In this document: piece by piece, positions 9,245-48,096 of the stretch
Layout: each line of letters starts with the position of its first letter
Position numbering within the stretch: position 1 is the first letter of the stretch
Assembly (NCBI GenBank): GCA_951406725.2
Contig: OX597816.1
Location: 171,368,001-171,432,000 of the forward strand
Source: Octopus vulgaris
Taxonomy: Eukaryota
Reading direction: 5' to 3'
DNA length: 64,000 nucleotides
Notes under the pieces: model-generated
Told to the model about the DNA's origin: nothing
Seen by the model: only the letters and a program-made list of their open reading frames with translations
The model's database searches: none
Program-made: the position numbers and the translations under genes

Positions 9245-9275
<31 letters not shown>

Positions 9276-11020
9276 GTGTGTTTGTCCCCCCTAGCACTGC
9301 TTGACAACCGATGCTGCTGTGTTTACGTCCCCGTAACTTAGCGGTTCGGCAAAAGAGACCAATAGAATAAGTACTGGGCTTACAAAGAATAAGTCCCGGG
9401 TTCGATTTGCTCGACTAAAGGCGGTGCTCCAGCATGGCCGCAGTCAAATGACTGAAGCAAGTAAAAGAGTATCATGGATGTTGCTGGAAACTACTAAAGC
9501 ATAAGACGTAGAATGCTACCATTAAACAGCTTGGACTTTCAAGATATCCTTATAATTGAAAGCATATTTGAATAATAAGATTTTGGTGAATGAAGTTTGC
9601 CACCGTGTTTTAATTCCTTGCTGAAACAGTTTTCAAAATTTTGAGAGAATACATACAAATGATCTCATGTTCTTACAATAGGTCAATAGAAGAACTAAGA
9701 AGATAGGAAGAGTTATCACACACTTGAAAAGATATACACTTTGCAGAACGTGGCTGAGCTATATACAAGAACTAAACTATAGGTTCTACGAAGCATTTGC
9801 TGCAAACCCTGGTGTGACTGCCTGCAACATGGAGGAGAAGAGGTTCAATAAATACAAGAGCCTGACTGGCTGCTGGCAGTTTATGCCAGTCGCTGTTGAG
9901 ATGTCAGATGTTCAAGGACTCCATACTACTCATTTCTTCGGCAAAATAGGGGTAACAGTGGCCCATCAGAGAAATGAGCCCTGCAAAGGAGTAGTGACTG
10001 CTGCAGTGGGCGTCACTGGCTATTCTCTGCAACAATGCCATTGCAGTCATCACTATGGACCACAGCTGAGCACCCTACTTGTTCTGGAATATGTGACCCA
10101 TCACCTCCTCCTCTCCATCTTCTGCCACTTTACCCCCTACCACATTTCTTCTTCACCCACCCCCCCTTTTCTTTCTTTTCTTTTTTAATCTCTCTTCTTT
10201 CCTGTTTCTTTGCATAACAGCACGGACTTTTGTCAGTGAACAGGTCGCGGTCTTAAAGCGACGAAAATATTTTGACAAATTAAACTTAAATGTTGAAGTG
10301 AAACGAACGGCTTTTGCGTGTTTCTTAAATGGCTTACAAACACCTTCCACGCTGCGATTGATTAAATAAACAATTTACACTATATACTTGTCATTGCAAA
10401 TTGTATTCATAGAAAAAGAAATTTAAATCAGATATGAGGAAAAAATTGATGATAGTGGTAGTGATGATCAACAAGTATTACTTTGAAAGGTTTTGGCCAG
10501 TATCGGCCCAGGCCATGTTTAGCTTAACAGCACCACCTATTTTTAAACAAATATGCATGTGGCACTTACTTCACATCATTTCCAATGTTAATACCTTTCT
10601 AATGGTAGGCATACATAATCCTAGATATGTCAACCGTTCATCCATCTTTTATTTTCAACCCAAACTGTTGTAGGGTAAAATTCCCAAAATAAATTTACGT
10701 AGATTATCACAGAATTATTTATACTAGCAGAAAGACTGCCCTCTGAGCAGTTTTCTGCAAGTCACTTGATAATATTTTCACATTTGATTCCTGTTACTAA
10801 TAATCTCGATGATATTTTACACCTAATTATTTCTTTGCATAATAGTGCTCACTTGCTTAGTAAATATTGCTTTCATTATTTTATCATAGTCATAATCTCT
10901 CTTTTTTTAACAAACATCAAGGTAGTCCAACTACAGAGAGTGGAAGCAATTTGTCAAGTCTCACCTTCCCCTCAAAGCAATATAGAGATTTCAGTTCAGT
11001 AGCCCATCTATTAGCTTTGC

Positions 11021-11076
<56 letters not shown>

Positions 11077-14000
11077 CGTGAGACAAAGAGGGGGAGAGAG
11101 AACATTGCAAACAATGATTGAAATAAACATGAAATGAAAAAATTGTATAAATAAGAGGGCATAACTACAGATGTATATGCAGCCAACTTTGTTGCCTAAT
11201 ATCCAGGAAAATAGATAGTTTTTCAGGAAAATTTTTTACAAATACTGTTTAGATGTTATGGCTTCAGAGTATATAGGGATTTAAGGAAAAATATTTTCCT
11301 GAGGGGGTGGAGAGAGGAGTTTCGGAAAATCCACATTATCTTTTTTCTCTCATAACATTCAGGAAAATGGGTATCTTTTAATGAAAGTTTATACAAATAC
11401 CTTTCAAACAGCATAGATTACAACTATAAAGAACTTTGTGCATTAAATGTTTTTCCAGGGGGCTGGGGAGAGGAGTTTCAGATCAGGAAGACCAAATAAG
11501 TTAGAACTACTGTTTTGACAGGAATTTTCCCCATTTTTTTTAAAACCAGTCTTCAAAATGATGAAGTGGGGTAGAGAGCATCTTTGTATGAGAAAAAGTT
11601 TTGAAAATTTTTTACAACCCCCACTCCCTCATCATCCTACTCTGGACCTATTTCGGCGAATTTTTATTGCACTTCAAAACCATGGGCGAAGACTTTTCAG
11701 TACAAAGAAAAGAAAATTGCTTATATTTTCAGAGGGAAAAGTGAATGATTTAAGGGAGATTTGGCTATGTTTCTTTCTCACTCTCACATGTATTGATGTT
11801 TTTCAATATTTTTCTCTCCATAAATACATCTATATGCTAGAGAGAAGAAAATTTGAAAAATTATGAATTTTTTGCAACCCCACTCCCTGCCCCCCGACTG
11901 TTTCTGTTTATAAATTAAAATATTGGAGAGCCTGAGGTCATTGCTGGCATTTATCCACAGTGATATAAAGAAAGAGTTACATAAATGATAATTCATTTTA
12001 ATAGCATACTTGTTAGAAAATGTCATTTCTTACACACATACAGTTTCGCTTGATTGAGGTGGATGTAAAAATTTAGATTGCATATTTTTTTTTTTTTTTT
12101 GCTTACATTCCACCAAAGGACCATGCGTGTTTTACTTAGGCATCATCTTTCTACAAAATGTGTTTAATGTGAGAAAAATATTGAAAATACACCAAACATC
12201 AATAGGCGCAGGAGTGGCTGTGTGGTAAGTAGCTTGCTAACCAACCACATGGTTCCGGGTTCAGTCCCACTGCGTGGCATCTTGGGCAAGTGTCTTCTGC
12301 TATAGCCCCGGGCCGACCGAAGCCTTGTGAGTGGATTTGGTAGAAGGAAACTGAAAGAAGCCTGTCGTATATATGTGTATATATATATATGTGTGTGTGT
12401 ATGTGTTTGTGCATCTGTGTTTGTCCCCCTAGCATTGCTTGACAACCGATGCTGGTGTGTTTACGTCCCCATCACTTAGCGGTTCGGCAAAAGAGACCGA
12501 TAGAATAAGTACTGGGCTTACAAAGAATAAGACTCGGGGCCGATTTGCTCGACTAAAGGCGGTGCTCCAGCATGGCCGCAGTCAAATGACTGAAACAAGT
12601 AAAAGACATGTCTTGGACAAGTAACTCTAAGTCAAAGAACATCTTGTGAGTGAATTTGGAAGACAGAAACCGAACGGAAACTGTCAGATATAAGTAAATA
12701 TGTATGTGTATAAGCTTGTGTGTGTGTCACCTTGTCTTAACATCACAATCATTGTAAATTAGTGTCAGTTTATGACAAAGTTGAGCTTTGTGTTTCCAAT
12801 TTTCTGTGAAAACATATGCAGCCGGGAAGATATATTAACTAGCTTTGGTAAAGCAAGTCAATATATCTTGGTAACAGGAAGGGCATTTGGCTGTAAAAAA
12901 ATCTGTCAACAAATACCATGTGATCTATGTCAGCAGGAAAAGTTGATGGTAAAAAAAACAATATGGTGATAAAATCAAAAGCAAACAATCTTAAATACAA
13001 ACATTATACTTTTCTGTATTTTCTCCTTTTTACTTGTTATATATAACAGGGAAGAAGTGCAAAGAAATGATAAACCCATGGTAGGGGGACTTCGAAAGGG
13101 GTATCAGGGAGTAGCATCCCTGCCTTCCTGAGCTAGTTTTCCACCACATTTCTTAAAAATCATGGTAGAGGCTTTGGTCTTGGGACCACCCATGTCTAGA
13201 AACTGAGGTTGGAGGTAAGCAAGGGCATGATCCCCATAGAAAATCCAGTTCCAGAAAAGTCTTGTGATAGCAAAGGAGAAAGGGCACCAGCCAACCCAAA
13301 GGTAGATCTGGCCACCCACGTTAATGGGGACAAAACCCGGGTTTAAAACACTGGATGATGATGATGATGATGGCAAGCCATGTTTACAACAGAGCTTCAT
13401 CTCTAATGGTTGCTTATGGCTGTCTCTCTCACCTTTAAGGTTTCAGAAGTGAAAGTGATAGCTTAGTAGTTGGGAAGGTCAAAGAGGCCACAGTGAGCCA
13501 AAACGCCTCAAGGTAGGCTGACATTTATTTATGAACACTACAGCAAAACAGAATCTTCAGTAATGTTTCAATGACTCAATGGAAAACTAGTCAAAACAAG
13601 GAATCTAAAAATCATTATACACAGGACACACAAATTTGAGAATATACCAGGTTCAAATCTAGCGCCTTGCCAACATAAACTTATTTCCTCGTATCTCAAG
13701 GATTATCTACCTCAGGAAAACATGAAGTGAACATGCTCTACTGAGAACTAATGAGCTGGGAAAGGAAATGAAGAGGAAAGACTACATTGGTATGGTTGTG
13801 AGTCTTGCAAGTAGCGGTGACCACACTACTGTTGGTGGCGCAAAAACACTATCTAGTACACTCTGTAAAGTGGTTGCCATTAGGAAATGTTTTGCATTCA
13901 GCTGTGGAATCCTTGCAAAAGCAGATATTCTTGTCAAACCATCCCACCTTTTTCTGGCAAGGAAAAAGAGATGTTAAGTAATGATGACAGTTGGGATAAA

Positions 14001-17000
14001 GAAATGCCAAGTGACCAAATGATCCAGGTGAAAGAAACTCCAAGAAGAAAAAGACATGAGAAGCAGCGTAAGCTAATCTCAGGATACTGAAACTCACAAA
14101 ACAGATGACAAAGGACCACATGTGAAAAGATACAGAGCTGGGAAAGACCAATTCAACCAAAACGTATAACGATGGTAATGATAAAATCACAAGAACAGAT
14201 TTTTGAAGAAATGTTATAAAATAGCCTGAAAAAGAGATTGAGTAGAACTTACTGATATATCTCTATAAACTGCAATAGCTCGCTGAGTGTCACCTCGGTC
14301 AACATGACATTCCTATAAAAAGAAAACAAAAAAAGATATGATTTGAGTTTGCCATGGAAATTAAGTGACCTGAAATTTGTAACAAAATTAGAATTCAGAA
14401 TGCTTCATTTCATTTATAACACCCAAGGTAGTAGTTTTTTTATTTTATTTTTATTTTTTTAATTTGTTTTTAAACAAAAGATAATTAGCATATCAATTAA
14501 ATCAGTTAAACCATTCTTGCCAACATTCAATGATTAAAAGAATCCTATTATATTTTTATAATTAAATATTATTAGAAACTGCTTTGAAAAATTGTTAAAA
14601 TAGCTTAAATTTATTGCACATAAATTTTAACAAAATCTTATGTGGACTACCACTACAGCTTCTATTAAATGTCATGTGGACCCCAGCTGAGAATCACTGA
14701 GTTACATGAATAAACTACAGGTCTGTTAACTGAGAGCTCAGAGGTTCTAACTTTGTTTTAGGCGTTTATATTGTTTTCTTAAGTTCAACAGTTTTGGTTT
14801 AAATTTTACATTTAAGAAATTAGCATTCACAATAAAATGCTTGAACATATAATTCAAATAAATACCAAACATTTATATAAATTGATGTAATGCATTGAAA
14901 GATGCTAATGACTATAAGATAATGTTATTTAACCCTTTAGTGTTCAGATTCTTTTCTTCTTTAGAGACAAGGCCCGAAATGTTGGGTAAGGGGCCAGTCA
15001 ATTAGATTGACCCCAGTACGCAGCTGGTATTTAATTTATCGACCCCGAAGGATGAAAGGCAAAATCGACCTCGGCGGAATTTGAACTCAGAACGTAAAGA
15101 CAGACAAAATATCGCTAAGCATTTCGCCCAGCATGCTGACGTTCCTGCCAGCTTGCCACCTTTAGTGTTCAGATTATTCTGTTAAATGTAATAATTTTTC
15201 ACTCAAATTGTTTTTAATTAATCATGCATTATCTTACAGCTTTGAGGTTTCAATGATTGTTTATTTGAACATAAGACATGTAGAATATTTAGGCCGGATA
15301 TGGCCGGTTTAGACACTAAAGGGTTAATGATTGCTATCAAAACTAGTAGGTGCAAACCTTTGTATTTCCTTAATGTTATCAGCTAATTATAGTTATCAAA
15401 AAGGTTCCTTTACAAAGGATAACAATAAGCAGCTTCCAACAGCAATGTTAAATAAACATCAAATAAAAGTAAAATGATTTGAAAAGTAATACAATAGGAA
15501 TTTAACATATCTCATTTATGTCAAAGCTAGTTCTTTCAATTTACACAAAATTCTGAAAGCTGTTGCTGTATGGTTAAAGTTTTTAAAATGTAATACATGG
15601 GTAGTTAGATAACTAAGTAGACATACATGAATACCAGTACCAACTGTAAATAAATTCCAGATCCAATTTATATACACAATAAGTGGTTCTAAGTGTAACA
15701 CCATGAAATTCATACTTCTAAATGTATAGAAAAACATAGGAGAAATGATAGGGAGGGAGATACTCAGGTATGCCATCTACTGGTAAAATAGTTAAGTGGG
15801 TGCCAAAAAAAAAAATTAATGTTAATTACAGTTAAATGCAAATAAAGAAACAAAAAGCTATAAAACTTACTGATTAGTTCTTGTAATGAAAGGCAATGAA
15901 AACAAATTCGAAATTTAAATTAATCAAAATTAATTAAAAATTACATGAAGACAAGCAGTGGAGAACAAGTCTGATCTTTGAGAAGTACAGTGACAACACC
16001 AGAGATGCTTTAGTTTTGCTATGATCTGATAACTGCTGGTGAGAATACACCCCACAGAGGAGGACCAATAAGGCTGGAATATATCTAGAGTTATCACCAT
16101 ACTTGCCAAAGATAAGATGCACACCTCATCGCATGTCCCAATTCAATTTTTAATTAATCTTGATCGTTTAAATTTAAGAATTGCTTCCTTTGCCTCTTTT
16201 GACTTGAAAGAATAATTATGCTAATGGAATGCTTTCTCCTTACTCTATTGTCTACAGATATATTTACATTAGCTAACCTTATTCAGATAGGAAAATGGAA
16301 ATGAAAATATATCCTGAAGTAAATTCTTGAATTCAATCCTTTAAATATTCTTAATATTATACAATATCCCATTTCTATAATACTGGTAATTATTTGCAAG
16401 GGATAATATTTGAATTCTATAATAATGTCAGAACAGTATGAGATTTTGCAGTCCTCAAATTGAGAAGTGCAAGTTACACACTTTTACCAATGACACAATT
16501 ACTCTAAATAAAATGGTCATTTAAAACTGTTCTAAAAATATATGGTTACAATATGATAAATATGAACACATTAATTCTAATATAGTAAACACACACACAC
16601 ACATATATGTATGTATATAAATAGCTAAGAGTGTGTGTGTGTGTGTATAAATATATATATATATATATACTTGATAAATGCAAGCACCTGTATATGCCAG
16701 CTAGTAGCAGAGGTGAGAGGATATATGTATCAAATGAAATAAAATGAAAAACAGGACACAAAGGATGTCGCGGTACACATGTTTCGAGCTTTATAAAACA
16801 ACTTATTCTTACATCAATGTATAATCGACATAACAGATAGTTTAAAAGCCCTCTTTGATGCTGAGCTAGTTTTCCACCTCATTTCTCAAAAGTCACGGTA
16901 GAGGCCTTGGTCTAGGGACCACTCATGTCTAGAAACAGAGTGGGGGTAAGCAAGGGCATGCTCCCTGTAGAAAATCCAGCTACGAAAAAGTCTCATGATA

Positions 17001-19839
17001 ATAGCAAAGGAGAATGGGCACCAGCCAACCCAACGGTTGGGGTAGGCTGCACCTGCCTACCTAAAAAGGGAAGGTGCAAACCCTCATCCTGGGTTGCGCA
17101 AGTATGACTTGCCTAATAAGCTTGGGTTGAGGTTGGGAAGTTGGAATGTGGGCAGTCTGTGTGGAAGGGAAACTGAGGTATGTGAAGAATTGAAGAGTAG
17201 GAGGGTGGATGTGTGCTGTGTGCAGGAGGTTAAGTGGAGGGGCCAGGGTGTAAGAGAAGAAGGTACAAGTTGTGGTGGTCAGGAAACAGCAGGGAGACTG
17301 GAGGTGTAGGAATTTCGGTGAGGGAAGAAATCTATGAGAAGGTGGTGATGGTCAGGAGAATGAGTGACAAAGTGATGACAGTAGTGTTAGCATTTGAGGA
17401 AGAAGTGGTGAGGGTGATTTGTGGGTATGGTTTGCAAAGTGAAAGAGGGACCACAGAGAAAGAGCAGATCATGATGAAATGGCGAATGAATAGGACTTAC
17501 AAAAGATAGATGAATTGGTTTTGGGCATGGGTGATTTTAATGGTCATGTTGGGAGATGGATCCAGGGCTTTGAGGTTGTGTATGGGGGGAAATGGAATTG
17601 GGGAGAGAAATTTGGAAGGAAGGATGCTGTTGGAGTTTTGTGATGACGAGTTGTGTATGGCAAATACATGGTTTAGGAAAACACAGGAAAGGAAGGTGAC
17701 TTTCAGTAGAGGAAGGAATGAGACAGAGATTGATTTTATGTTGGTTGGCAGGAAAAACAGAAAATATCTGAGAGATGTGAAGACAATACCAAGGGAATTG
17801 CAGCACAGGTTGGTGGTTGCTGACTTGGATAAGAGGGAAGTTAAAAAGCTTGTGAGAAAGGGAACGGTTGAGGGGAGAAAGGTGTGGAAACTGAGGGAAG
17901 AAGAAACAAGAGCAAAGTTTGAGGAGAGAGTTGGGGAGTGGGTAAGCATTGATGCAACTGATTTGTGGAAGTCTTTTAAAGAAGGGGTACTAAAAATATG
18001 TTGAAGGATGAAGGGTAGGAGAAATCAAGGAGATACATGGTGGTGGAACAAGGAGGTGAGGGATGGGATAGCAAGGAAGGAAGAAGGAGGCGCACAAAGC
18101 TTTATGTAATAATAGGACTGAGCAAATGAAAGCCAGGTATAACAACATGAAGAATCATGCAAAGAGGGTGGTTGCGAGAACCCAGATAGAGTATTTAAGT
18201 TTATTAAATCAATGAAAAATGATGGAAGAGATGTTGAGGGATGAAGATACATGAGGGGAGTGGTAGAAGCCTGAATTTTACTGAGAAGGATGGGAAGAGT
18301 TTGAAAGGGGCATATGGAGGAAATTATGAATGAGGAAAATGAATGGGATTAAAGGGTGGAAGTTGCTGTGGTGAAGGGGCAAGTGGAGAGGGTTAACTGG
18401 GAAGAAGTAGTAGCAGCAGCAATGAAGGAAATGAAAACAGGAAAGGCAGCTGGTCCATGGGAAGTGTGGAAATGATAACCGCAAGTGGAGAGATAGGGAT
18501 TGTTGTGATGCTGGAGCTCTGCCAAGATGTGCTGGATGAAGAGGAATACCGGACAACTAGGCACTAAGTGTGGTGGTACCGATCTTCAAGGGGAAGGGGG
18601 ATGCAATGAGTTGCAGGGCGTAAAGAGGAGTGAAATTATTGGAGCATGCAATGAAGATAGGGGAAAGGATATTGGAGAGGAGAATTCGGAAAGGGGTGGA
18701 TGTGGATGAGATGCAATTTGGTTTTATGCCAGGAAGGGGGACAATAGATGCAGTGTTCATTGTAAGGAGATTGCAGGAGAAATACAGAGATAAGGGGAAG
18801 GAGTGCCTCGTTGATCTGGAGAATTTATTTGATAAGGTTCCAAGGAAGGTGACTGAGTGGACATTGAAGAAGATAGGTGTAGAAGAGGTAATAGTGAGAA
18901 CAGTGATGAGTTTCTTTGAGGGGGTGAAGAAAAGAGTGAGAATTGGATGAGGGCTGTCGGAGGTGAAGTTGATGTGCATCAGGGATCTGTGTTGTCACCA
19001 TTGTTGTTTGCAATAGTGGTTGATGTGGAGACAGAAAGTGCAAGAGAGGGACTGATAATGGAGATACTGTATGCAGATGATATTGTTCTGAGGAGTGAGA
19101 CAATGTAGGGATTGAGGGATAAGTTCTGGAAATGGAAGAAGGCATTTGAAAGCAAGGGCTTGAAGGTAAACCTCGGGAAGACAAAGGTGATGGTGAGCGG
19201 GGTGGAAGGAGAAGTGTTAGTGAGTAAGGTGGATCCATGTGGTGTATGTGGGAGGAGGGTAATGGCAAATGTGGTGTTGTGTATAAGATGTGAGAAACGG
19301 AGTCATGGTCGATGTACGAAAATGAAGGTGACCCCCAAGACTGGCAAAAGAGTTTGTTTGCAGAAGATGTGAAAAAGAAGCTGGAGGGCTGGTGAAGTCA
19401 GTGGAAATACTATTTGATGAGGTGGATATGGTGAGAGGGTTTTGTTACTTGGGAGATAGGGTGGATGTAAGTGGTGGATGTGAAGCAGCTGTGACAGCAA
19501 GAGTGAGACTTGGTTGGGTGAAGTTCAGGGAATGTGGAGTGTTGTTATAGGGGAAAAGGTTCTCATTTCAGATGAAAGGAAAAGTCTAGAGGAGTTGTGT
19601 GAGAGCTGCAATGCTGTATGGGAGTGAGACATGGTGTTTGAGGGAGGGAGAGAGAGATGGCAATTTTGAGAAGGACTGAGAGAGCAATGGTGAGAGAAAT
19701 GTGTGGTGTGAGGCTCTTTGATAAGAGGAGGATTGAGGAATCAGTGGTATGAGCAAGGGATGAGGAGCATGTTTTGAAGAGTTTGAGGTAAATGGACAGC
19801 AAAGAAAATACACCAAAGAAAATACACACACATATCTAA

Positions 19840-19883
<44 letters not shown>

Positions 19884-19887
19884 CTAA

Positions 19888-19918
<31 letters not shown>

Positions 19919-20090
19919 TATCTAAATATATATATATACACACATACATACATATATATATATATATACACACACACATATCTAAATATATATATACACA
20001 CACATATCTAAATATATATATACATACACATATCTAAATATATATATACATACACATATCTAAATATATATATATACACACATACATATC

Positions 20091-20138
<48 letters not shown>

Positions 20139-33093: not shown

Positions 33094-33156
<63 letters not shown>

Positions 33157-34336: not shown

Positions 34337-34398
<62 letters not shown>

Positions 34399-37089
34399 TT
34401 GTGTGTCTGTGTTTGTCCCCCTAGCATTGCTTGACAACCGGTGCTGGTGTGTTTATGTCCCTGTTACTTAGCGGTCCGGCAAAAGGGACCGATAGAATAA
34501 GTACTGGGCTTACAAAAGAATAAGTCCCGGGGTCGAGTTGCTCGATTAAAAGGTGGTGCTCCAGCATGGCCGCAGTCAAATGATTGAAACAAGTATGAGA
34601 GTATACTTCGTATAAATTATTACTTACTCAACTGAAAGAAGAATAAACCACTTATAAGATATACTGGTTCATAATTATGTGATTCCAGGTTCATCATTAC
34701 TGCACGGCATTACAGGCAAGAGTCTTTTATCATAGCATTGGATTGGTCCAAGACTCAGGGAAAAAAATTGATAGATAAAAACTGTGCAGAAACTTAGTGC
34801 ACCTAAGTATGCACACACGTTTGCATGTGAACATGCTAATGTGTATTTTTTACTGATTTAAACCATTCAATTATAGCAATAATTGGAGCACTGCTTCTAC
34901 GTATATAACCAATCATATTAACCAGTATCTAACCTAATAATTTCTTCACGGAATAACAAAATATCAAGGTTTATTATTTTTAAGAGATATAACTGTGATG
35001 TACACATCATCATCATCATCATCATCATTGTTTGACCGTGGTCGAGACAATGGAATTTACCATGCTACGCCAGACTTCACGGTCCATCATGGCATTACGG
35101 AGGTCCTGTTGCTGGATGCCTGTATCCCTGGAGATTACATCAGGGTAGGAGAGTGTGCGCCTTCTGGGATTGCGAGTAGATGGCTTCCAGAGGAGAAGAG
35201 TAGAAATTACCTCTTTTTCAGCTCTACAACATAGACAGACACACACACACACCCGATTTTCTACTAGTTTCTGTTTACCAGATTCCCCTCAAGCTTTTAT
35301 CCAACTGAGCCTTTTCAGATGCAGACCCAGGAATTTTTCGAATGGAGGGCACAAGGTCAGAAGGGAATACAATTCCAGGAGAAAAGGATGTAACATTATT
35401 TAGAAGGGTACACTTTTCTTAAGGGGAGCATGTGCCCCTCAAGCTCCCCCTTGGGTCAACCCTGCTACCGTAGAAAACATTGATTTAAAATACTACACAG
35501 TTGCATCAAATTTGGAACAGAATATTTACAAAATGACTCTCTGCCACCAGTGAATATCAACTAAAAATCTATACAGCAGTGAAAAGACTGGTGAACTATG
35601 GTATTCAAGCAAGAATACCTTGTATTTATTCCACCCAACTTGTAAAAACAGCCCCTTTTGATTCCTATCATTAGAATTGTAATAAACCAGTGACTACCTC
35701 ACTGGAAGCCTATAACCAATGATACTTTTATTCACAAAATGTATGATATAAAATAAACAAACAAATACATAAATAAATGGAAGCATTTGTATTAACCATT
35801 GTGGTGTAAAGTAATCTTCGGGGATGGGGAGAGGTGCACATTAGTACTGAAAGGGTACCCTCAAAATGATCAAGTCAAAAATGCAACTGGACTTTCTTTC
35901 CAACCTGTAGGTATGTTTATCAGCTTTATTTAATATAGACGCAGGCGTGGCTGTGTGATAATTTAACCCTTTCATTACTGAATTCATTTTGTGATGCTCT
36001 GTGTTTCTTTCAATTATTTAAAATATAAAAAAGAATTTAGTAAAATAATTTTGTTATCCTTAACCTAGTGTTAGGAACATAAATTGTGACTAAGATTTGG
36101 TGGAAGATTTTGATTAAAAACTTATGTAAACAAGATATGTATATTAAAGGGCCAGAGCTGGTTTCAGCCAGGTTGGTAACAAAAGGGTTAATACCATAAT
36201 TCTTGAAAAGAAGCACTGGTTTCCAATTGATTAAACAGATTTAGCATTTCTGATGGCAAAAGAGACAACTGTCTAACCTTGGTGCAGGGGACAGCATTCA
36301 TAAAATAGTTTTTTTTTTAATATCTTTATCAGTTTTCTTGCCAATATTGTACGTTGAGGCAGAAGTGAAAGATATACTTGTAGGCAGGAACACACACACA
36401 CACACACACACTTTCCATCTACCAATTTCCACTCACATGATATTGGCCAAACTGAGGCGATAGCATAAGACATTTGCCCAAAGTGCCATACAGTAGAATC
36501 AAATCTGAAGCTAAGCAGTTGTGAAGAAACTCCTTTATCACACTGTAATACCTATATTTCATACATGACGTATAAGTAAGTTGATTAGCAACATGCTATA
36601 AATGTAAGAAATCAGGAATACAAGTTTATGAATTTACATCCGATGTTTATGCATAGCAAACTTTTTAAATCTAATCACTATCTATAGTTAAGGAGGTCCT
36701 TCAAATTCAATGCATGGGAAACATTATCATTATTATATGTTTGACTTTTGCTTTACATTTGCACAAGCTGGCTCCAAGTCTCACTCAGAGACCTCAAGAG
36801 ACAACAAGTTGGAAGTTCATGTTGGTGTTATGCCTAGGGTGCCATATATTTGGTTTCATATTTAGTGTTGTACTAGTGAATGCCTAAAAAAAAAACATAC
36901 GAAAATTATGTTTATTTTAAAACTTGAGATTACAAAGAAAGTATTTTGCATAGGATATGAGCAGTTCCCATGAGCACTATCTTTTGAATTTCTGCCATTT
37001 TGGGGTTTCCTGGTATCTGAGTTAGGTAGCAATCAGCCCCTTTTGCTATCATTCCCAGGGCACCTATGACAACAGGTATTGTTTTAGTC

Positions 37090-37126
<37 letters not shown>

Positions 37127-40100
37127 TATTATTATTACTATTATTATTATTATTATAATTATTATTACTATTATTATTAAACCATCTGATCGTGGCCGTT
37201 GCCAGCGCCGCCCCGACTGGCCTCCGTGCCGGTGGCACGTAAAAGCACCATCCATTCGTGGCCATTGCCAGCCTCGCCTGGCCCCCATGCCGGTGGCACG
37301 TAAAAGCATCATCCGTTCATGGCCGTTTGCCAGCTCCGAAGTGGTTGGCGTTCGGAAGGGCATCCAGCCGTAGAAACACTGCCAGATCAGACTGGGCCTG
37401 ATGCAGCCTGCTGGCTTCACAGACCCCAGTTGAACCGTCCAACCCATGCTAGCATGGAAAGCGGACGCTAAATGATGATGATGATGATTAATATGCTATT
37501 AATTTATTGTAAATGATAACTAGGAAAACAAAAAACAACCATGGATTACACCACTGCACACATTGTTTCTCTTCGTCACTTCAGTGATGAGGAAGAAGAA
37601 CAGGAGCAGAGAAGGAACTTGTAGCTACATAGCACTAAACACTATCAAGTGTAACCTAGTAAAATACAGCTACACAGAAGATAAGGGGACAAAAGAGATG
37701 CCTTCGAGGGGTATAATGAAAATGACCTTAGAATATGACCAAAGTAATCTGAAAGTAGAAAGTAGCCGATATCACTCTTCATTAACCTAATTGAAGAATA
37801 TCATTAAATATGTAACTGTTATTAAAAGCAAGGACAGAAAAATCCTTTCAGATCATTTCGGCCAAATGAGCTACAAGTCACCAACATTAACATGTTATTG
37901 TAGTTCAATAGTCTATTTATAGTGGAGGTAAACTATCAGCAAGCTAGACCAATGGCTCTGTCCCAACTTCCAGATGGACTCATCTGGGTTTATTTATATC
38001 CTTGGAAAAAAAAAAATATGCCACAACTTTCCATGTCCTTAATACTAGAATTATAGGTATCAGAGAAACCTACTTTATAAGGCCAAATTGCTCTTATTAC
38101 ACTAGATGAAGTTATCACTATCATCATCGTTTAACGTCCGTTTTCCATGCTGGCATGGGTTGGACAGTTTGACTGGGGACTGGCAAGCCAGGAGGCCGCG
38201 GTAGGCTCCAACCTGATCTGGAAGTGTTTCTACAGCTGGATGCCCTTCCTAATGCCAGCCACTCCGAGAGTGTAAGTGAGTGCTTTTTACATACCACCAG
38301 CATGGGAGTCAGTCAGGTGACATTGGCATCAGCCACGTTCAGATGGTGCTTTTTACGTGCTACTGGCACAGGAGCCAGTCAGGGCAGGGAGGCTGGCATC
38401 AACCACATTCAGATGGTACTTTTTTTATGTGCCACCGGCATGGGGAGCCAGTCAGACAGCACTGGCAATGAGCCACGCATGCATGGTACTTATTGCGTGC
38501 CACGAGTATGGGAGCCAGTCAGGTGGCACTGGCACCAGCCACAACTAAAGTTTCCATTTGATTCAAAGCTTCCAACAATAATGATGATAAAGATGTGTTG
38601 ATGATAATTTTAATTCCTTACAAAGCATAGAAATAAAAAGAGAAAACATAAAATCAAATTTACAGGACATTTGCAAAACTGGTTGCATTTTAAGATTTGG
38701 ATATATATTTCAAGCAATAATAAATCTCTGAACGAGACGTGGTTAGCCATATTGAGATGGCTGAGTATACCTTACGTTGTCGAGCGGTTACTGTTTACAT
38801 CTCGTTCAGAGATTTATTATTGCTTGCAGACAGTTTTTCGAAATCAGTGACAGAAGTTACTGGGAAAAACATTAAATAGATATTTGCAAACAGGTCCCCT
38901 CATCGAAAACCGGTGATTGCCGTACGTTGACAAGAGGCAAATACCTCGAAACTGCAGTCCGTGCGTATCACTTAGGTTTACGAGAGAGGGATGACCTCCC
39001 TTTGCAAATACCATAAGGGAACAGAAAGTGTGCCTAAAGCCAGCTGGAGACGATGATCTCCTGGGACTAAAAGCTACAGTAACACCCACCCTTAGTGGTT
39101 AGCCATATTGAGATGGCTAGTATACTTTACGATATATATTTCATTTTATAAAAAAACTAACATTGCTCATTCCTGGAGAGTCATTAAATTTTAGTGACTA
39201 AAAGAGTAACATTGATCCCTGAAAAGCCCATGCATGTGAAGTTACATAAATTTACAGTTCTTTCAAGATAAAGTAAAACCTACCATGAAGAAATTTTTTT
39301 TTTGTAATTTTTAAACTTGTACCTCACCCCATAGTATCTTAAAAACTTTGTATTAACCCTTTCGTTACCAACCCGGCTGAAACCGGCTGTGGCTCTTTAG
39401 TATAAATGTCTTGTTTTCATAAGTTTTGAATTCAAATCTTCCACCAAACCTTAGTCACAATTTATGTTCCTAACACTAGCTCAATGATAATGATGTTATT
39501 TTACTAAATTCTTTGTTATATTTTAAATAATTGGAAGAATCACAGAGCACCTCAAAATAAATACAGTAACGAAAGGGTTAAATTGACTAAATGACGTGAC
39601 ATATCACACTTTCCACATGCTTTAGTTTATAAATTAATCAATATTTACGTTATTGCACACTTGCACAACAGACTCATAAAAATGTGGCTTTCAATAAAAA
39701 TTTCATTCCCAAATGTAAAGATGGCTGAAAAAAGTTTAAGTTCAGCAAATTATGCATTAGTGAAATATCTCAAGTTCTGTATGTTATATACTAATCAAAC
39801 TAGGTAAGCTGATTACTAGTGCCAAGCTGTATCTTTTAGAACAAAAAAAGTTTATTTTTTAATTAAACAGGTAATTAAATTAAATATTCATATTTCAAAT
39901 ATACAAATTAGACACAATTTCTCAAATTTTTTACAGGTTACATGGTTATTTAACCTAGGATATGTTTTACTGTTTTAATATATTTATATTTATGTATCAG
40001 TCAATATTAACCTCCTGTTTCAATAAAATATACACAAAAGCATTGCATAAGCGCAGGAGTGGCTGTGTGGTAAGTAGCTTGCTAACCAACCACATGGTTC

Positions 40101-43100
40101 CGGGTTCAGTCCCACTGCGTGGCATCTTGGGCAAGTGTCTTCTGCTATAGCCCCAGGCCGACCAATGCCTTGTGAGTGGATTTGGTAGACAGAAACTGAA
40201 AGAAGCCTGTCGTATATATGTATATATATATGTATGTATGTGAATGTGTTTGTCCCCTTAGCATTGCTTGACAACCGATGCTGGTGTGCTTACGTCCCCG
40301 TCACTTAGCGGTTCAGCAAAAGAGACCGATAGAATAAGTACTGGGCTTACAAAGACTAAGTCCCGGGGTCGATTTGCTCGACTAAAGGTGGTGCTCCAGC
40401 ATGGCCGCAGTCAAATGACTGAAACATGTAAAAAGAGTAAAGAGAGCAGTTAACTTGTCCTAGTAATTTCTTTATCTAAGTAGAAAGTCAAGACTTTATA
40501 GATCCAATAAATTTCTCTTTGCCTATCCTATGTGGCCCGTGATACACGGAACACATTCCCCTGATGTCTAGACATCATATATAACACACATTCCCAACTT
40601 CTTTTTAACAACCAAAATAACTTGGGACTTATGAAAGGAAAGCTTTATCTTACTCAGAACATATGAAACAAGGGCTAACTAGAAGAGTGTGCAAGTGTGT
40701 GTGTGTGTGTGTGTTTGTACACACACAAACACACATGCACATGTGATAACTTTAACCAACCGCCACTCCACTGGTTATGACTACGGAGGTTCCATTTGAT
40801 CCAATCAACAGAACAGCTTGCTCATGAAATTAACATGCAAGTGGCTGAGTATTCCATAGACACGTATACCCTTAATGTAGTTCTCAGTGAGATTCAGCAA
40901 CATACAGAATGCGATATGGCTGGCCCTTCGAAATACGGATACTACTCATGTTTGCCCCCTGAGTGGACTGGGACGGCATGCTCAAGAGCACAACACAACA
41001 CTGGGAATTGAACTCACAATCTTAAAATTGTGAGCTGAATATCCTAACTAAGCCATGCACCTGCACTACATATATGTACAGAGAGAGAGAGAGAGAGAGT
41101 ACAAAATGAAACACTATCAGCTAATCAGAAATGACATAACATAAAACAGAGAAACAACATTTTGAGTAGTTGATGCTTGTAAAATTCTCTGGGGGAAAGT
41201 TCTTCTAGCTTCAACAAAAGTAGGATGAGATCAATAAAAAAAAAAAAGAGGTAAATCAAATAAGATCAATAACAAACAAAAATTATGATTCTGGAATTCA
41301 ATATTTGATTATACAAGTGATAGCCCAAGATTTTTTTTTTTTTTTTTTTTTTTTTTCTAGTTTCAGCTCAGAGCTGCGGCCATGCTGATGCACCACCATT
41401 GTTTAGGAATAAATTTTGTAAAGCCAGAAAGGAACTACTTACAACATTATGATAAAAATTTGTATTTTCTCGGTTGTTTTCTAATGTACTTTTGACATCA
41501 GGTGGAGTAAGTTTTGGTGGACTAGACACGGGATCTGAAACACAAAAAATTTTAACATGAATATTTTTCATCTAATGTGTGTGTATATATATATATATAT
41601 AAACTTTATTTCTAGAAATTGTTATAAAGAATAATGTTTACAAAATTAAAGCTTAATTGCACAAATAAATAAAATTAATTTATTTCTACATCAAGAGTAA
41701 ATTTGAAATTTGTAACTAGGAGCAAGGTCAATTTTTTTAAGGTACAAGAATAGTAAATTGAGTTAATTCAATAAAATACATTTGTATCAACCATGAAAGG
41801 TTGGACATCATGTCAAGCCTTGTAGCTTTTTAAACAGATTCATCCACTGAAATACTAAAATGGATGCAGAATAATTTACTCTGCAATTTTCAAGAGCTCC
41901 AGTACTTTAAGGCTTTCTAATGAAATAATTTATTTTCAATTAATTATGTTAGTTAAATGAACATTAGAGAAACTATAAAAGAGGAAAATTCTCTTACGGC
42001 TTCTTCCCATGGTGGGTCTTTCTAATACCAAGGCAATAATACACATCTATGGATTAAGCTTCCTAATAAACTAAAAGAGTTGACTATTTCATCAGAATTT
42101 GGCATAATTCTACATTTTTTTGTAATTAAAATCAGCTCATTCTTATAATAAAAGATCAGAAAATGAACATCTCATTTTCAATATCACTAAAATACAAATG
42201 ATTGATCTGAGTGAACTTTTGTTAAATACTTAGAAATCAATCTAGCAAAAAATAATAATGCGTTTAAAAACACAATACTGTGAGTTGGTATATTGTTATG
42301 AAATTAACTTAAAATAGATAAACTAAAAGAAAAATTGTAACAAAATCAAAAAGAGAAAAAGAAAGCAGCTAATGCGTAGGTATGATTATACTTTCTTTCA
42401 GAATTCTAATAAATTATCTATAGATAATGAAAGTAATTAATAATGCAGAAATAATTCAGAAAATATTACAAATCCATCATCTTCAAGAAGGATATTAAAT
42501 TTCAAAGCTATACATGTGACAGGTAAAAGAAAATAAACATGAGATGAACAGTGAAGACATAGAAATACATTACTTCTGTGGAAACGAAAACCAAAGGCAA
42601 GCAATATTTAATGAACATTGATGATTTCAAAACTTTCCTATATAGAAAATAGAAATCGATCCATTTAATAAATATTATCTGAGCATTTAAATAGGTTATC
42701 ATTAAACCAATAAGATATACACTGATTAATAGCAGGAGGGATAATATAACAATTATATCTAGGCAAATTGGAATACCAATTTCAAATTCACAAATTTAAC
42801 CTATGAGAACCATTCACATATATTTACATCAGTACAAAACTATTAAAGAAGCAAATTAACAATAACTATAAGCTATGAAATAAGCAAGAAAGTATGTTCC
42901 TCAATACCATATCAGAGATTAAAAATGTTTTCAGAATTACCTATACCACAACAAAAATAATACATACAGTACGAAACATTTGTAAACAACAAAAATTAAA
43001 TCCAGCAGAATGCTCTCATCATCAGTGCAACAAAATGACTACTATGCCCATTATTTTACCCTTGAGAAGCAGAGAATCATATGAACTGAAGTGGTAATAG

Positions 43101-45647
43101 AGAAAACAATGAATAGAATTAAAAAATGCAACATAGTTGAAACACAATTGAAATCATGTGCTCTAACTTGGAGCTTTCTATTAGCTATAAACAATGTAGC
43201 ATTGGTGACTCGGTGTTGGCTATACAATAGAAAAAACACTGCTCAGAGAGAATAATGAATGTCACAAACCACTACACAGGAGAATATGTGAGATGTAAAT
43301 AAAGTCACAGAAAAGCAAATAAATACCGAAATCACATTATTTCAAAAAATTTCTCTCAAACAATCTGGACAGACATCAATCACTGGAACATTTAGTAATA
43401 TTAGAACTCTCCTTTTTGCAAATGCTTTAAATATTTTTTCCCCTATAAACTTTTTTATATATATATACATATAGATTATCCCACTAAGCACCTCAACAAT
43501 AGACTCCCTATACTTGATACTAAACTTTGGTTAGAGACTGTGAACAATAGAGTGCAGCTACTCCACTCCTATTACATGAAACCTATAGCTTCAAAATATG
43601 TTGTTCACAAGAACTCAGCTTTATCACACATGAAAATAAACATACGGATAGCAGACTTAGTTAGGACTAGCAGTATCGCCCGGCGTTGCTCAGGTTTGTA
43701 AGGGAAATAACTATAAAGCATTTTTAGAGAGTTATAGCCAAAAAATGGAAAAAAATTATGGTAAATTTTTTTTTGAGAGTAAAAAAAGGTGGAGTTGCGT
43801 CCCCTAGACGGTTTATGTTTCTGATTCTCGACCCCATGTCGAATTTATCGATTTTTTTCAGAACTGGGGGAACTTTTCAAAATTTTCGCTGCGTTAGTTT
43901 TGAATTATGACATTGGGCTATGTGTGTGTCAAGTTTCATCAGAATCGGTTGAAAGCCGTGGTCAGGGTGAGGGTACAAGCAAACAGACACACAGAAACAC
44001 GCACAGACAAACTGCCGTTTATATAGAGAGAGATAATGAACAGCATGTCCTCATTATTTGAACCCTATGAAATGAAAAAATATATACAGAACTTCATGCA
44101 CTGCATGCAATTCTCTGGATATGATCAGAAAGATAGGGTTCGAGTATACAGGGGTGCTAGAAGGAAATTAGGTAACATTATACATAATGATACAAGTGGT
44201 ACCTGCCCTAGATATAGAAACAAAGACTGGAATATGATACAAAGAACTTGTGACAAAGCAAACAGGGCCAACAAATATCAAGGAGTGATGTTTCTAGATG
44301 CCACAGCCCATGGAGAACTAGTCCGTAGATTTAGAAAAGCCCTGAAGGAGACCAAACTCAATTAAGATTGTTGAAAAGCCAGGGAACTCCGTCAGATCAC
44401 AACTATGCAGGATGTACCCCTTTGAGAATACCATATGCAACAATGACAACTGTAGGATTAGCTCTGGCATTAATTGTAAAACTAGAAATGTAGTTTATAG
44501 CATAAGATGCATAGAAGGTGCTTGTAAAAACATGAACATGACATACATAGGGGAGACATCTAGGAGCATTGCGGAATGACTAAATGAACATTTGAGACGA
44601 TATGATGACAAAAAACTGTACTCCATACTCTACCAACATACCAAGGACCAACATAGAGGCAATCTGGGTCAACATGACATCCCCATCTTATCCAAGCACC
44701 CAAAAGACCCAACACTCAGACAAATATGGGAGTACGTCCTCATAAATGAAACTTCCCCAATACTAAATAGGAAATATACATAGTAGATATCATACCCCCC
44801 CCCCCCTACACACTGTTTACACAGGTTGAATAGAATAGTTAGTGGACTGTTTATGAAGATAGATGTATGTGTGTGTATGGGTGTATGTATAAATGTATAT
44901 GCACATGTATATAAGCATATGGATATGAAAGAAACTAGATCAACATACAGACGGACAGGTACATAGGTTATATGAACAGACAAGCACACATACACAAATG
45001 GAGACTAAAACACATGACCATATATACACACACACTTTACTTGACACAAAGACACATATGGAGACACACGTTCACACAAATGGAGATACACATCCATACA
45101 TACAAACTCGGTACATAGTTGCAAAACACACACACACAGACATGCACACACAAGGAGACAGAGGTAAACGCACACACATATACAAACGCACACACAGACA
45201 TAAAACACACAAACACAGACATGCAAACACATGAATATGCAGAATACATACATACATACATACATATGCACAAATACACACATATGCATATATACATGTG
45301 TATGTGCACACACATTGACCCAGACACATGCACACAAACAGACAAAAAGGAACGCAGTGTGAATAATGGACAGAGTCAAAATTATCGAAAAGGCTGCAAG
45401 ACGCAACGAAAATTTAAGAAAAATAAAAAGGAAACAAGTGGAAATTTTAGTGGGGTGTGTATTAAATTATAAGGCACTAAAAGAGAATGACTCTCCCCAG
45501 ACACAACAGAATATGCTTCAACACACGAACTCACATAAAGAATCTTGCAAACCAAATCCAAAAATGAAATATATAATCATATATATATATATTTTTTTTT
45601 ATCTAGTTTCAGCTCACGAGCTGTGGCCATGCTGGGGCACCGCCATT

Positions 45648-45690
<43 letters not shown>

Positions 45691-46364
45691 CACACACACA
45701 CACATATATGTAATACACATATAGGTATACATATGCATATATATGCACACATACAGACATGTACACATACACATTATATCTACATATATACATACATGTA
45801 TGTAAATATACACCCACAAGCATATGCACACATGCACTTGCATATATATGTGTACACACACATATGCGTGCACACGCATAAATATACAGTAAAAATAAGT
45901 TCTGTCTCAATCGGTAAAACAAAAGTCTAAAAGCACTGTTTTCATATATATATATATATATATACTCTTTTACTTGTTTCAGTCATTTGACTGTGGCCAT
46001 GCTGGAGCACCGCCTTTAGTCGAGCAACTTGACCCCGGGACTTATTCTTTTTGTAAGCCCAGTACTTATTCTATCGTTCTCTTTTTGCCGAACCGCTAAG
46101 TGACAGGGACGTAAAAACACCAGCATTGGTTGTCAAGCAATGCTAGGGGGACAAACACAGACACACAAACATACACACACATATATGTATATATACATAT
46201 ACACGACAGGTTTCTTTCAGTTTCCGTCTACCAAATCCACTCACAAGGCATTGGTCGGCCCGGGGCTATAGCAGAAGACACTTGCCTAAGATGCCACGCA
46301 GTGGGACTGAACCCGGAACCATGTGGTTGGTTAGCAAGCTACTTACTACACAGCCACTCCTGCG

Positions 46365-46400
<36 letters not shown>

Positions 46401-48096
46401 CCTAGTTTCAGCTCAGAGCTGCGGCCATGCTGATGCACCGCCGTTTGCATATCTGGAGCCCTTGCCCACTTTCTTCCTCCAGACACCTCCACCATATGTC
46501 AACTCTCAAAAAGCTTTTCCTTGATATCACTAATCTTTCTCACTGGCCAGAACCACCATGACACTTGATATCCACCTTTCAGCCTTTTTTTATTTTGATC
46601 TCATCCTGAGACACCAGATTATATCTCCGCCTCCACCACCACTGCACATCTCTCACTCCGCCCGCACCCCCATGCTCTATGCCTTCGCATGGACTGCAAC
46701 CTATGCAATCACACAGCATTCCTGTCTCACATGTTCATCATTCCTTTGCCTTCTGTATCAATATTACTCTGGCACAGTTCTTCACCCAACATGCATAATT
46801 GGACACCTCAACTCCCTATCCCTTATCCACCAGCCACTATACCCATCCCCTCAACACCTGTTCTTCATTCATTATATTCACACCAACCTCACTCATTTCC
46901 CCCCCTTCTCGCTCACTCTCCCATACAACTAACATCTACCCACCCACATTCCTGGTTCCTCTGACCCCATTCATCTAATACCTTGAGGATCCACCCACAC
47001 ACTTCATCACCACTATCTTTATCACTTCCCAGCTCCATGTGATAACACAGCCAATATTCTAGAACGACTAATCATGCAGCATCTCTAAAGCAAGGAAGCT
47101 GTTCAACTCAGGCCCCTACCTCCATGCTTTAACCCCTTCATCTCTGAGCACAGAGCTACTTCATTAGGGGGATCACAGTTTTGTAAGCTGCATTGTGACC
47201 TCACTAGTGATGACAGCAAAAGGAAAAAGCACCCACTACACACTAGGAAGGGGTTTCAGGTTAGGAAGGAGATCCAGCCAATAGAAACCATGCTGATACT
47301 TGAACAAGATGCAGTCCAGCTGCTCATTAGATCCTATGGAACATATATATACACACATATATATATATATATATATATATTTCGTTTTTGGATTTGGTTT
47401 GCAAGATTCTTTATGTGAGTTTGTGTGTTGAAGCATATTCTGTTGTGTCTGGGGAGAGTCATTGTCTTTTACTGCCTTATTATTTAACACACTCACCGGT
47501 AAAATTTCCACTTATTTCTTTTATTTTTCTAAAATTTTCGTTGTGTCTTTCAACCTTTTCAATAGTCTTGACTCTGTCCGTTATTTACACTGCGTTCCCT
47601 TTTGTTTGTTTGTGCACATGTGTGTGGGTCAATGGGTCAGTATGTCTGTGTGTGCCTATACATGCATGCATGTACGTATATGTGTGTGTGTGTTTGCATA
47701 CATGCATACAAACATGGTACAGAGTTACATAACACACACACACACACACAAGGAGACAGGGGTGCATACATATACAAACACATGCTCACACACACACACA
47801 GGAAATACACAAACATGGACAGGCAAGCACATAAATATGTAGGATGCGTACATACAGATGCACACACATACATACATATGCATACACACACATATATACA
47901 TACATACACATGCAAACACACACACACACATATATACGTACATGCATGCATGTATAGGCACAGTGTAAATAATGGACTATTGAAACGGTTGCAAGATGCA
48001 ACGAAAATTTTATAAAAAAAAAAAAAAAGAAGTGGGAATTTTACCGGTGAGTGTGTTAAAAGGCACTAAAAGAGAATAACTCCCCCCAGACACAAC

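What the first reader, a model, noticed from the sequence alone, without database searches (positions are those of the whole stretch)
10229..47565. Several unrelated minimal hammerheads in one gene with three different 3-8 base pairs
Seen in sequence: four sequence-unrelated motifs share one architecture (stem I, 7-nt core, stem II, GAA, short palindrome, H17, stem I). The cores are GUGAACA (G3-C8, 10229), CUGUUGA (C3-G8, 20256), UUGACAA (U3-A8, 38921) and UUGAAAA (U3-A8, 47529). Positions 3 and 8 are always complementary. Three have one extra purine between A9 and stem II. The stem III palindromes differ (AAUAUU, ACGU, ACUGCAGU, AAUU). Established: PLE minimal HHRs with palindromic stem III are thought to cleave as dimers. 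Inference: this genome may hold a large under-counted set of variant-core HHRs, and family-specific palindromes could restrict dimerisation to the same family.
Basis: partly seen in the sequence, partly recalled or inferred. Interest (0 to 1): 0.8.

Follow-up and report, generated by a model that had tools for sequence, protein, structure and literature searches.

The report
Variant-core hammerheads of Penelope-like retroelements
Four small hammerhead-shaped RNA motifs sit in introns of one gene because each is the tail of a different high-copy jumping-gene family (three Penelope-like, one retrozyme-like), and most such motifs in this genome carry family-wide changes in the catalytic core that the standard pattern misses; they are predicted, not shown, to cut RNA.

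Summary
Observation confirmed. A descriptor with positions 3 and 8 left free finds exactly these four motifs (3 hits in 200 shuffled windows). They lie in introns of a beta-PIX/ARHGEF7-like gene. Each core is its family's normal state, not decay: G3-C8 (7,047 pattern matches; 85 of the first 100 GUGAACA, none canonical), U3-A8 (4,487), and C3-G8 with U6 inside a 38,461-match lineage that is 59% U6, 24% C4, 11% canonical. In 1.4 Mb of independent sample, 46 of 48 hits pair 3-8 and only 15 are canonical. Sites 1, 2 and 4 are 3' ends of GIY-YIG Penelope-like elements. Site 3 is a 357-nt retrozyme-like unit with a non-minimal hammerhead. Sites 1 and 4 are related, not unrelated. Palindromes are shared between families, so dimer specificity would need stem I too. 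The kind is known (Cervera 2014, 2020), and this scan met U3-A8 and G3-C8 cases in other genomes. High-copy G3-C8, U6, C4 and C9 cores were not in the papers I could read; Lunse 2017 was unavailable. Cleavage is untested.

The parts
10218..10363 (+). F1: 5'-truncated 3' end of a GIY-YIG Penelope-like element
   Evidence: Shared extent -18..+127 around the core in most of 29 other copies. Longer copies carry a GIY-YIG ORF about 1 kb upstream.
10229..10279 (+). F1 minimal type I hammerhead motif, core GUGAACA (G3-C8), extra G, palindrome AAUAUU, predicted cut after 10272
   Evidence: Family pattern 7,047 matches; 85 of the first 100 GUGAACA, 92 keep G3-C8, 0 canonical (counted by eye).
20144..22740 (-). 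F2: 5'-truncated, frameshifted Penelope-like element (RT pieces with YIDD, C-x4-C-x2-C linker, GIY-YIG), ending in a TA microsatellite; left end of the RT piece approximate
   Evidence: weak Pfam GIY-YIG E=0.0045; copies 91-99% identical in the endonuclease.
20257..20294 (-). F2 minimal hammerhead motif, core CUGUUGA (C3-G8, U6), extra A, palindrome ACGU, predicted cut after 20262
   Evidence: 4,948 exact 32-nt matches; wider lineage 38,461 matches.
38739..39131 (+). F3: 357-nt tandem-type retrozyme-like unit with about 37 nt terminal redundancy; short inverted piece at 38711-38740
   Evidence: head-to-tail copies at 358-nt spacing, fixed 3' end, 5' truncation and inversion; no GIY-YIG region was linked to an F3 motif in the loci held.
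38907..38979 (+). F3 type I hammerhead with extended stem I (URC bulge opposite one U), loop II CAAAUA, core UUGACAA (U3-A8), ACUGCAGU, predicted cut after 38959
   Evidence: the same architecture, with covarying stems, in two homologous ~360-nt families.
47341..48104 (-). F4: Penelope-like 3' end with an inverted partial copy (47975-48104, +) forming a hairpin-type insertion
   Evidence: GIY-YIG upstream in longer copies L069, L073, L078, L082, L087.
47529..47565 (-). F4 minimal hammerhead motif, core UUGAAAA (U3-A8), extra G, palindrome AAUU, 3-bp stem I, predicted cut after 47532
   Evidence: 4,487 matches, 83 of the first 100 UUGAAAA, 0 canonical (counted by eye).
45310..45605 (+). Second, decayed F4 copy (core UCGAAAA at 45385, stem II mismatch); the inverted copy near 47980 has A9 changed to C
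   Evidence: neither passes the descriptor.
2365..50385 (-). Host gene, beta-PIX/ARHGEF7-like; exon candidates 50262-50385 (SH3), 27478-27600 and 26049-26187 (RhoGEF), 14253-14312, 5449-5602, 3478-3557, 2365-2489
   Evidence: SH3 exon best match ARHGEF7, E=2.4e-18; RhoGEF E~9e-5 for two exons; the other exons are assigned by recalled resemblance to PIX only. Splicing not checked with reads.

Best explanation
The four motifs are the family-typical type I hammerhead motifs at the 3' ends of four retroelement families inserted in introns of one gene (three GIY-YIG Penelope-like families and one ~357-nt retrozyme-like repeat), and they likely serve to cut the parent element's tandem transcript, not to regulate the host gene. 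Shown: position in the elements, copy numbers, family-wide cores, and compensatory 3-8 swaps inside two homologous groups (F1 G-C / F4 U-A / F5 C-G; retrozyme-like families C-G / U-A). Inferred from published work on such motifs: two copies in one tandem transcript would pair through the stem III palindrome and swap stem I strands, cut after H17, and release unit-length RNA that may be circularised and then reverse-transcribed by the Penelope RT-endonuclease. F3, with 2 bp of stem III as a monomer and a probable loop-loop contact, may also cut alone. G3-C8 and U3-A8 cores are likely active at reduced rate; U6, C4 and C9 cores are predicted to be much slower. The intronic copies are likely inert relics: two are antisense to the gene, and the window holds only one sense copy of each family.
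For: GIY-YIG upstream of F1, F2 and F4 motifs at family-constant distances of roughly 0.6-1.1 kb. Fixed 3' ends, variable 5' truncation, inverted second copies and TA-repeat flanks, as described for PLEs (PMC8557442 passages). F1, F4 and F5 endonucleases are about 50% identical and lie on one side of a 98/99 branch, together with one long-branch row. F3 and two relatives are 50-68% identical ~360-nt tandem units whose stems I, II and 3-8 pair covary. Sample: 46 of 48 hits pair 3-8; all 9 clusters with 2 or more contexts have a complementary majority core. Position 7 takes all four bases in the U6 lineage while C3-G8 is kept in 96 of 100 listed matches. Engineered C3G/G8C partly restores activity (PMC8495972 passage); natural U3-A8 is known and the swap was active in vitro (PMC3088659 section 8).
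Against: No cleavage data for any of these motifs. Published PLE min-HHRs cut poorly even as dimers (PMC4209133), and 8 of 9 Xenopus retrozyme dimers did not cut in vitro (bioRxiv 2026.07.22.740005 passage). Changes at position 6 cost orders of magnitude in Mg2+ (PMC7151607 passages; that is A6C, not A6U). F4's stem I is only 3 bp and both its duplexes have positive predicted energy. For F1, F2 and F3 the monomer's lowest-energy fold is not the hammerhead fold. Very successful lineages carry U6, C4 or C9, which also fits a dispensable catalyst. F3 has no linked RT, so its mobiliser is inferred.
Confidence: 0.78

Rival explanations
1. The fold is kept for a non-catalytic job, such as a dimerisation or RT-binding signal near the element's 3' end, and cutting is weak or lost, at least in the U6, C4 and C9 lineages.
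For: The largest lineage is 59% U6, 24% C4 and 11% canonical; a 3,435-match family has C9 and a non-palindromic stem III in 91 and 98 of 100. Stems and GAAA persist. Naiad PLEs proliferate without canonical hammerheads (PMC8557442 passages).
Against: Compensatory 3-8 swaps and H17 never being G as a family state fit the catalytic fold, though my descriptor excluded G17 by design. A6C, U4C and A9U natural variants keep some activity.
Confidence: 0.3
2. Palindromes are family barcodes that restrict dimerisation to the same family.
For: The four window motifs cannot cross-pair fully; homologous retrozyme-like families differ in palindrome (ACCGGU, ACGCGU, ACUGCAGU); F1 and F4 differ (AAUAUU, AAUU).
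Against: ACGU is shared by 5 clusters and ACCGGU by 4. F2, its sister lineages and the C4 lineage are predicted to cross-pair with 3-5 bp of stem I and full stem III. Divergence by drift gives the same picture. Dimers are thought to form in cis in tandem transcripts, where no barcode is needed.
Confidence: 0.12
3. The variant cores are copy-specific decay of canonical hammerheads, or chance matches.
For: Individual copies do decay (two further F4 copies in the window fail; 15-17 of 100 listed copies differ from the family core).
Against: 0 of 100 F1 and 0 of 100 F4 matches are canonical; 4,948 exact U6 copies; shuffles give about 0.55 hits per 1.4 Mb.
Confidence: 0.02
4. The motifs were co-opted to regulate or cut the host pre-mRNA.
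For: F2 and F4 motifs are sense to the host gene and intronic; domesticated intronic hammerheads exist in amniotes (PMC6155905 passage).
Against: Copies are 93-100% like other genomic copies of their families over the motif region, with no sign of locus-specific conservation; F1 and F3 are antisense; the sense ones are the weakest by prediction and have no same-family sense partner in the window.
Confidence: 0.04

Closest known systems
Minimal hammerheads (min-HHR) of metazoan Penelope-like elements (Cervera & De la Pena 2014, PMC4209133)
   Same: Type I, short stem I, extra base between A9 and 10.1, G10.1-C11.1, palindromic stem III, many sequence families per genome, mostly single truncated copies, inverted pairs, U3-A8 variant (about 1,300 hits in Schistosoma). 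F1, F2 and F4 fit.
   Different: Of the 56 rows of their Fig. S3 (read as text), 2 have U3-A8 and 1 U3-G8; none has G3-C8, U6, C4 or C9 (their descriptor fixed the core). Here these are family states with thousands of copies; the extra base is G in F1 and F4 (their consensus is H, one row G).
Non-LTR retrozymes of animals (Cervera & De la Pena 2020, PMC7229834; Li et al. 2026 bioRxiv 10.64898/2026.07.22.740005)
   Same: F3 and relatives are 357-362-nt non-coding tandem units with one type I hammerhead each; mussel units are 350-390 bp; co-occurrence with PLEs.
   Different: U3-A8 is the main core in two of three families; PLE-like fixed 3' end, 5' inversion and terminal redundancy; circular RNA not shown here; cephalopods are not mentioned in the passages searched.
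Small dimer-forming hammerhead variants of PLEs (Lunse, Weinberg, Breaker 2017, PMC5785218)
   Same: By title and by the review PMC6765202: short palindromic stem III, dimer cleavage.
   Different: Paper not held; I recall about 150,000 variants but cannot say whether G3-C8, U6, C4 or C9 cores are in it.
Natural core variants (Perreault et al. 2011, PMC3088659; Naghdi et al. 2020, PMC7151607)
   Same: U3-A8, A6C and U4C occur naturally with reduced activity.
   Different: Described there as rare single cases in viroids, phages and microbes, not as the dominant state of animal retroelement families; A6U and G3-C8 are not in the passages read.

Membership tests
PLE minimal type I hammerhead (F1, F2, F4) | Located in the 3' repeat of a PLE with RT and C-terminal GIY-YIG, on the coding strand | tested here: met
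   GIY-YIG upstream on the same strand in all three families; RT seen for F2 only.
PLE minimal type I hammerhead (F1, F2, F4) | Stem I, stem II starting G10.1-C11.1, extra base after A9, palindromic 15.1-16.1 region, H17 | tested here: met
   F4 stem I is only 3 bp.
PLE minimal type I hammerhead (F1, F2, F4) | Core CUGANGA or its published U3-A8 form | tested here: inconclusive
   Met by F4 (U3-A8). F1 has the compensatory G3-C8; F2 has U6, which breaks the consensus. F1 and F2 are filed as variants, not plain members.
PLE minimal type I hammerhead (F1, F2, F4) | Self-cleavage as a dimer after H17 | not testable with these tools
   Needs an in vitro assay.
PLE minimal type I hammerhead (F3) | Extra base after A9, no extended stem I, link to a PLE ORF | tested here: not met
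   No extra base; extended stem I; no linked GIY-YIG region found.
Non-LTR retrozyme (F3) | 150-400-nt non-coding head-to-tail repeats, one type I hammerhead per unit | tested here: met
   Units of 353-362 nt, GC 40-50%.
Non-LTR retrozyme (F3) | Canonical type I architecture: 6-bp stem I with internal loop, 4-bp stem II, loop-loop contact | tested here: met
   Secondary structure only: URC bulge and CAA(A)UA loop kept in three families while stems covary. That CAAAUA is loop II of the Schistosoma ribozyme is recalled; the tertiary contact itself is not tested.
Non-LTR retrozyme (F3) | Expressed, self-cleaved and circularised RNA | tested here: inconclusive
   contigs of four runs only guessed to be RNA; go-back joints fit tandem DNA as well as circles.
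Neptune/Nematis-type EN+ PLE | Cysteine linker between RT and GIY-YIG; TA-repeat targets | tested here: inconclusive
   C-x(3-4)-C-x2-C linkers and TA flanks are seen, but no named reference proteins were available for placement.

The most novel reading that the evidence does not exclude
In this genome the most successful Penelope-like lineages have repeatedly fixed changes at catalytic-core positions 4, 6 and 9 (and swapped 3-8 three ways) while keeping the hammerhead scaffold, because PLEs need a slow or non-cutting hammerhead fold. Sister families with canonical, G3-C8, U3-A8, U6, C4 and C9 cores then form a natural series that makes the open question 'what do PLE hammerheads do?' directly testable, and some PLE clades scored as hammerhead-free may only have been missed by CUGANGA descriptors.
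Probability: 0.3. Interest if true: 0.72.

Novelty: new variant of a known kind. Interest (0 to 1): 0.45.

Why it matters
Hammerhead counts in animal genomes rest on CUGANGA descriptors, and Rfam found none of the four here. In this genome about two thirds of descriptor hits are non-canonical (33 of 48), which scales very roughly to 60,000 of 90,000 motifs; five direct patterns already sum to 54,967 matches, not all intact. Natural, family-wide G3-C8 extends a base pair known from engineered mutants. Family-wide U6, C4 and C9 bear on whether PLE hammerheads need to cut at all. The host gene is probably unaffected.

Tried and rejected
Rfam scan: no hammerhead among 106 matches at E<=10. DNA search with site 2 returned nothing because its words are too common; replaced by a pattern. 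A looser descriptor (2-nt palindromes, long loops) on 1.2 Mb gave 43 hits, 40 complementary, against 7.1 per shuffle, 2.0 complementary. The tighter version (palindrome 4 or more, loop 12 or less, C4 allowed) was set, so its lower background is partly tuned. The sample is evenly spaced, not random; 7 of its 48 hits come from one tandem array; it stops at 1.4 Mb. Simple two-sequence alignment of the F1 and F4 motifs did not align the cores; their homology rests on the endonucleases and on the structural parse. The endonuclease tree did not isolate F1/F4/F5 from one long-branch row and has no named outgroup. Sequencing runs: no RNA holder listed; contigs of four guessed-RNA runs cover F3 with go-back joints in three runs, which cannot tell circles from tandem copies or give ends; not used as evidence. 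Host-gene splicing was not checked with reads. The repeat at 6075/43888 has GAAAAUUU but no core and was rejected. Literature searches: hammerhead+G3-C8 gave 1 paper (engineered, data not shown); G3C8 gave 0; A6U gave 1 listed paper on twister ribozymes, not read; hammerhead+Penelope+octopus and hammerhead+retrozyme+cephalopod gave no paper on cephalopod hammerheads. An octopus repeat-annotation paper has no 'hammerhead' or 'ribozyme' in its main text.
Full report
Observation. The four motifs are present as described. A descriptor for a type I hammerhead with positions 3, 6, 7 and 8 free, 0-1 extra base after A9, stem II of 4 bp or more, a palindrome from A15.1 and stem I of 3 bp or more returns exactly these four in the 64 kb, all complementary at 3-8. 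Locally shuffled windows gave 0 hits in 60 and 3 in 200. Rfam returned no hammerhead among 106 matches at E<=10.

Setting. The window lies in a 2.8-Gb, 227-contig assembly. Size and repeat character suggest an octopus; this is my inference and was not tested. Minus-strand exons encode an SH3 domain whose best solved match is ARHGEF7 (E=2.4e-18) and two RhoGEF pieces; further exon candidates reach down to 2365. All four motifs are intronic. Sites 2 and 4 are sense to the gene, sites 1 and 3 antisense.

Families. Site 1 (F1) matches a family with a fixed 3' end, short 5'-truncated copies and frequent inverted partners. A pattern with the core left open has 7,047 matches; of the first 100 listed, 85 read GUGAACA, 92 keep G3-C8 and none is canonical (counted by eye). 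Of 30 longer copies fetched, five show the same GIY-YIG frame about 1 kb upstream of the motif. Site 2 (F2) lies about 0.85 kb downstream of the GIY-YIG frame of a frameshifted RT-endonuclease element in the window itself. Its 32-nt string has 4,948 exact matches. The wider lineage has 38,461 matches; the first 100 are 58 CUGUNGA (N = U 22, A 19, C 11, G 6), 1 CCGUUGA, 23 CCGANGA, 1 CCGACAA, 11 canonical, 3 CUGCUGA and 3 UUGACGA (counted by eye). Site 4 (F4) has 4,487 matches, 83 of 100 UUGAAAA and none canonical; 3 of the 100 look unrelated. Longer F4 copies carry a GIY-YIG frame. Site 3 (F3) is a 357-nt unit found head to tail, with a fixed 3' end and 5' inversions, and no linked GIY-YIG region was found for it.

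Covariation. F3 is 68% and 55% identical to two other ~360-nt tandem families (1,537 pattern matches for the three together). Their cores are UUGACAA, CUGACGA and UUGAAAA; stems I and II change in pairs; palindromes are ACUGCAGU, ACCGGU and ACGCGU; a URC bulge in an extended stem I and the loop CAA(A)UA persist. This is the canonical, not the minimal, type I layout. F1 and F4 endonucleases are about 50% identical, as is a third family, F5, whose motif has C3-G8 but C9 and a non-palindromic AGAACU (3,435 matches; 91 and 98 of the first 100). Stem II reads GUCGC/GCGAC, GUUGC/GCAAC and GUCAC/GUGAC in F1, F4 and F5. So three different 3-8 pairs occur within one group of related elements. The tree places them on one side of a 98/99 branch, with one long-branch row among them and no named outgroup.

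Genome sample. In 140 evenly spaced 10-kb stretches the descriptor gave 48 hits: 36 C-G, 6 U-A, 4 G-C and 2 non-complementary. Forty shuffled replicates gave 22 hits in all, 2 complementary; the reversed sequence gave none. Only 15 of 48 are canonical, 7 of them from one array. Hits are copies, not independent events. Across all loci held, 204 distinct contexts fall in 19 clusters; all 9 clusters with two or more contexts have a complementary majority core, as do 8 of 10 singletons. No A3-U8 family was seen. The descriptor settings were tightened after a looser run (40 of 43 complementary, against 2.0 of 7.1 per shuffle).

Dimer specificity. ACGU occurs in five clusters and ACCGGU in four. In a double hammerhead the 5' arm of stem I of one copy pairs with the 3' arm of the other, so I tabulated both helices for 12 motifs. 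The four window motifs do not cross-pair fully. Families that share a palindrome mostly lack stem I complementarity in at least one direction, while F2, its N7 sisters and the C4 lineage cross-pair. Palindromes alone are therefore not barcodes.

Mechanism. Shown: location, copy number, family-wide cores and compensatory change. Inferred from the literature: dimer cleavage of tandem transcripts after H17, possible circularisation, and reverse transcription by the element's enzyme. Against activity: published min-HHRs are slow, 8 of 9 frog retrozyme dimers did not cut, position 6 changes are costly in Mg2+, F4's helices are marginal, and the lowest-energy monomer folds of F1-F3 differ from the hammerhead. 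Sequencing data did not help: no run on record as RNA holds F3, and contigs cannot separate circles from tandems.

Literature seen. PMC4209133: parts 1-2 of 4 of the text and parts 1-2 of 3 of the supplement, figures as garbled text. PMC3088659: passages and section 8. PMC7229834: passages and sections 14 and 17. bioRxiv 2026.07.22.740005: part 1 of 5 and passages; supplements not seen. Passages only: PMC6765202, PMC8557442, PMC6155905, PMC3884650, PMC8495972, PMC7151607, PMC10085705, PMC13282606. Lunse 2017: title only; not held. It is the paper most likely to hold these variants. Searches for natural G3-C8, A6U and cephalopod hammerheads found no describing paper. Earlier notes of this scan report U3-A8 and G3-C8 cases beside PLEs in other genomes; they are unchecked.

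Verdict. Real, well above chance, and a known kind of element. The increment is the scale and range of family-wide core changes (G3-C8, U6, C4, C9) and the retrozyme-like group with a swapped core. New variant of a known kind; interest 0.45.

Noticed in passing
L295 (minus strand), L211, L121; G000 pattern: Family F5, a sister of F1/F4: core CUGAUGC (C9) and non-palindromic stem III AGAACU in about 3,435 matches; missed even by my descriptor.
   Followed up: partly
G000 pattern; e.g. L131:2573, L186:9261: A lineage with C4 (CCGACGA) makes up about a quarter of the 38,461 matches; some canonical copies could arise from it by CpG decay.
   Followed up: partly
L122 (G000:C1:20002284-20004536), L243-L246, L163: Arrays of 353-362-nt retrozyme-like units with inverted blocks; C3-G8/ACCGGU and U3-A8/ACGCGU families.
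   Followed up: partly
window 39095-39121 and 38739-38765: Small hairpin (TAGCCAT...ATGGCT) just before the fixed 3' end of F3, partly kept in both relatives; a possible RT recognition signal.
   Followed up: no
window 47341-48104: F4 hairpin-type insertion would form long double-stranded RNA in the host pre-mRNA.
   Followed up: no
window 60173-61191 (+): LTR-retrotransposon-like remnant (weak aspartyl protease match, E=0.007), interrupted by a LINE-like fragment at 61192-61827.
   Followed up: no
window 17510-18994 and 9682-10188: Frames that look like decayed LINE-type element fragments (recalled resemblance; no Pfam match for the two pieces scanned).
   Followed up: no
window 5924-6154 and 43809-44039: 231-nt repeat pair, 97% alike, in opposite orientation; contains GAAAAUUU but no hammerhead core.
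   Followed up: partly
window 7473-7554: GC-rich near-perfect 82-nt hairpin inside a repeat (sub-threshold Rfam miRNA match on both strands).
   Followed up: no
window 9053-9468, 12184-12606, 32908-33354, 34154-34598, 40029-40435, 63496-63902 and inverse copies: Abundant SINE-like repeat of about 400 nt with a central TA/TG microsatellite.
   Followed up: no
L282:395, L229:3508, L055:686, L158:8995, L275:1686: Further low-count hammerhead families with palindromes ACAAUUGU, ACGAUCGU and ACCGGU and C3-G8 or U3-A8 cores.
   Followed up: no
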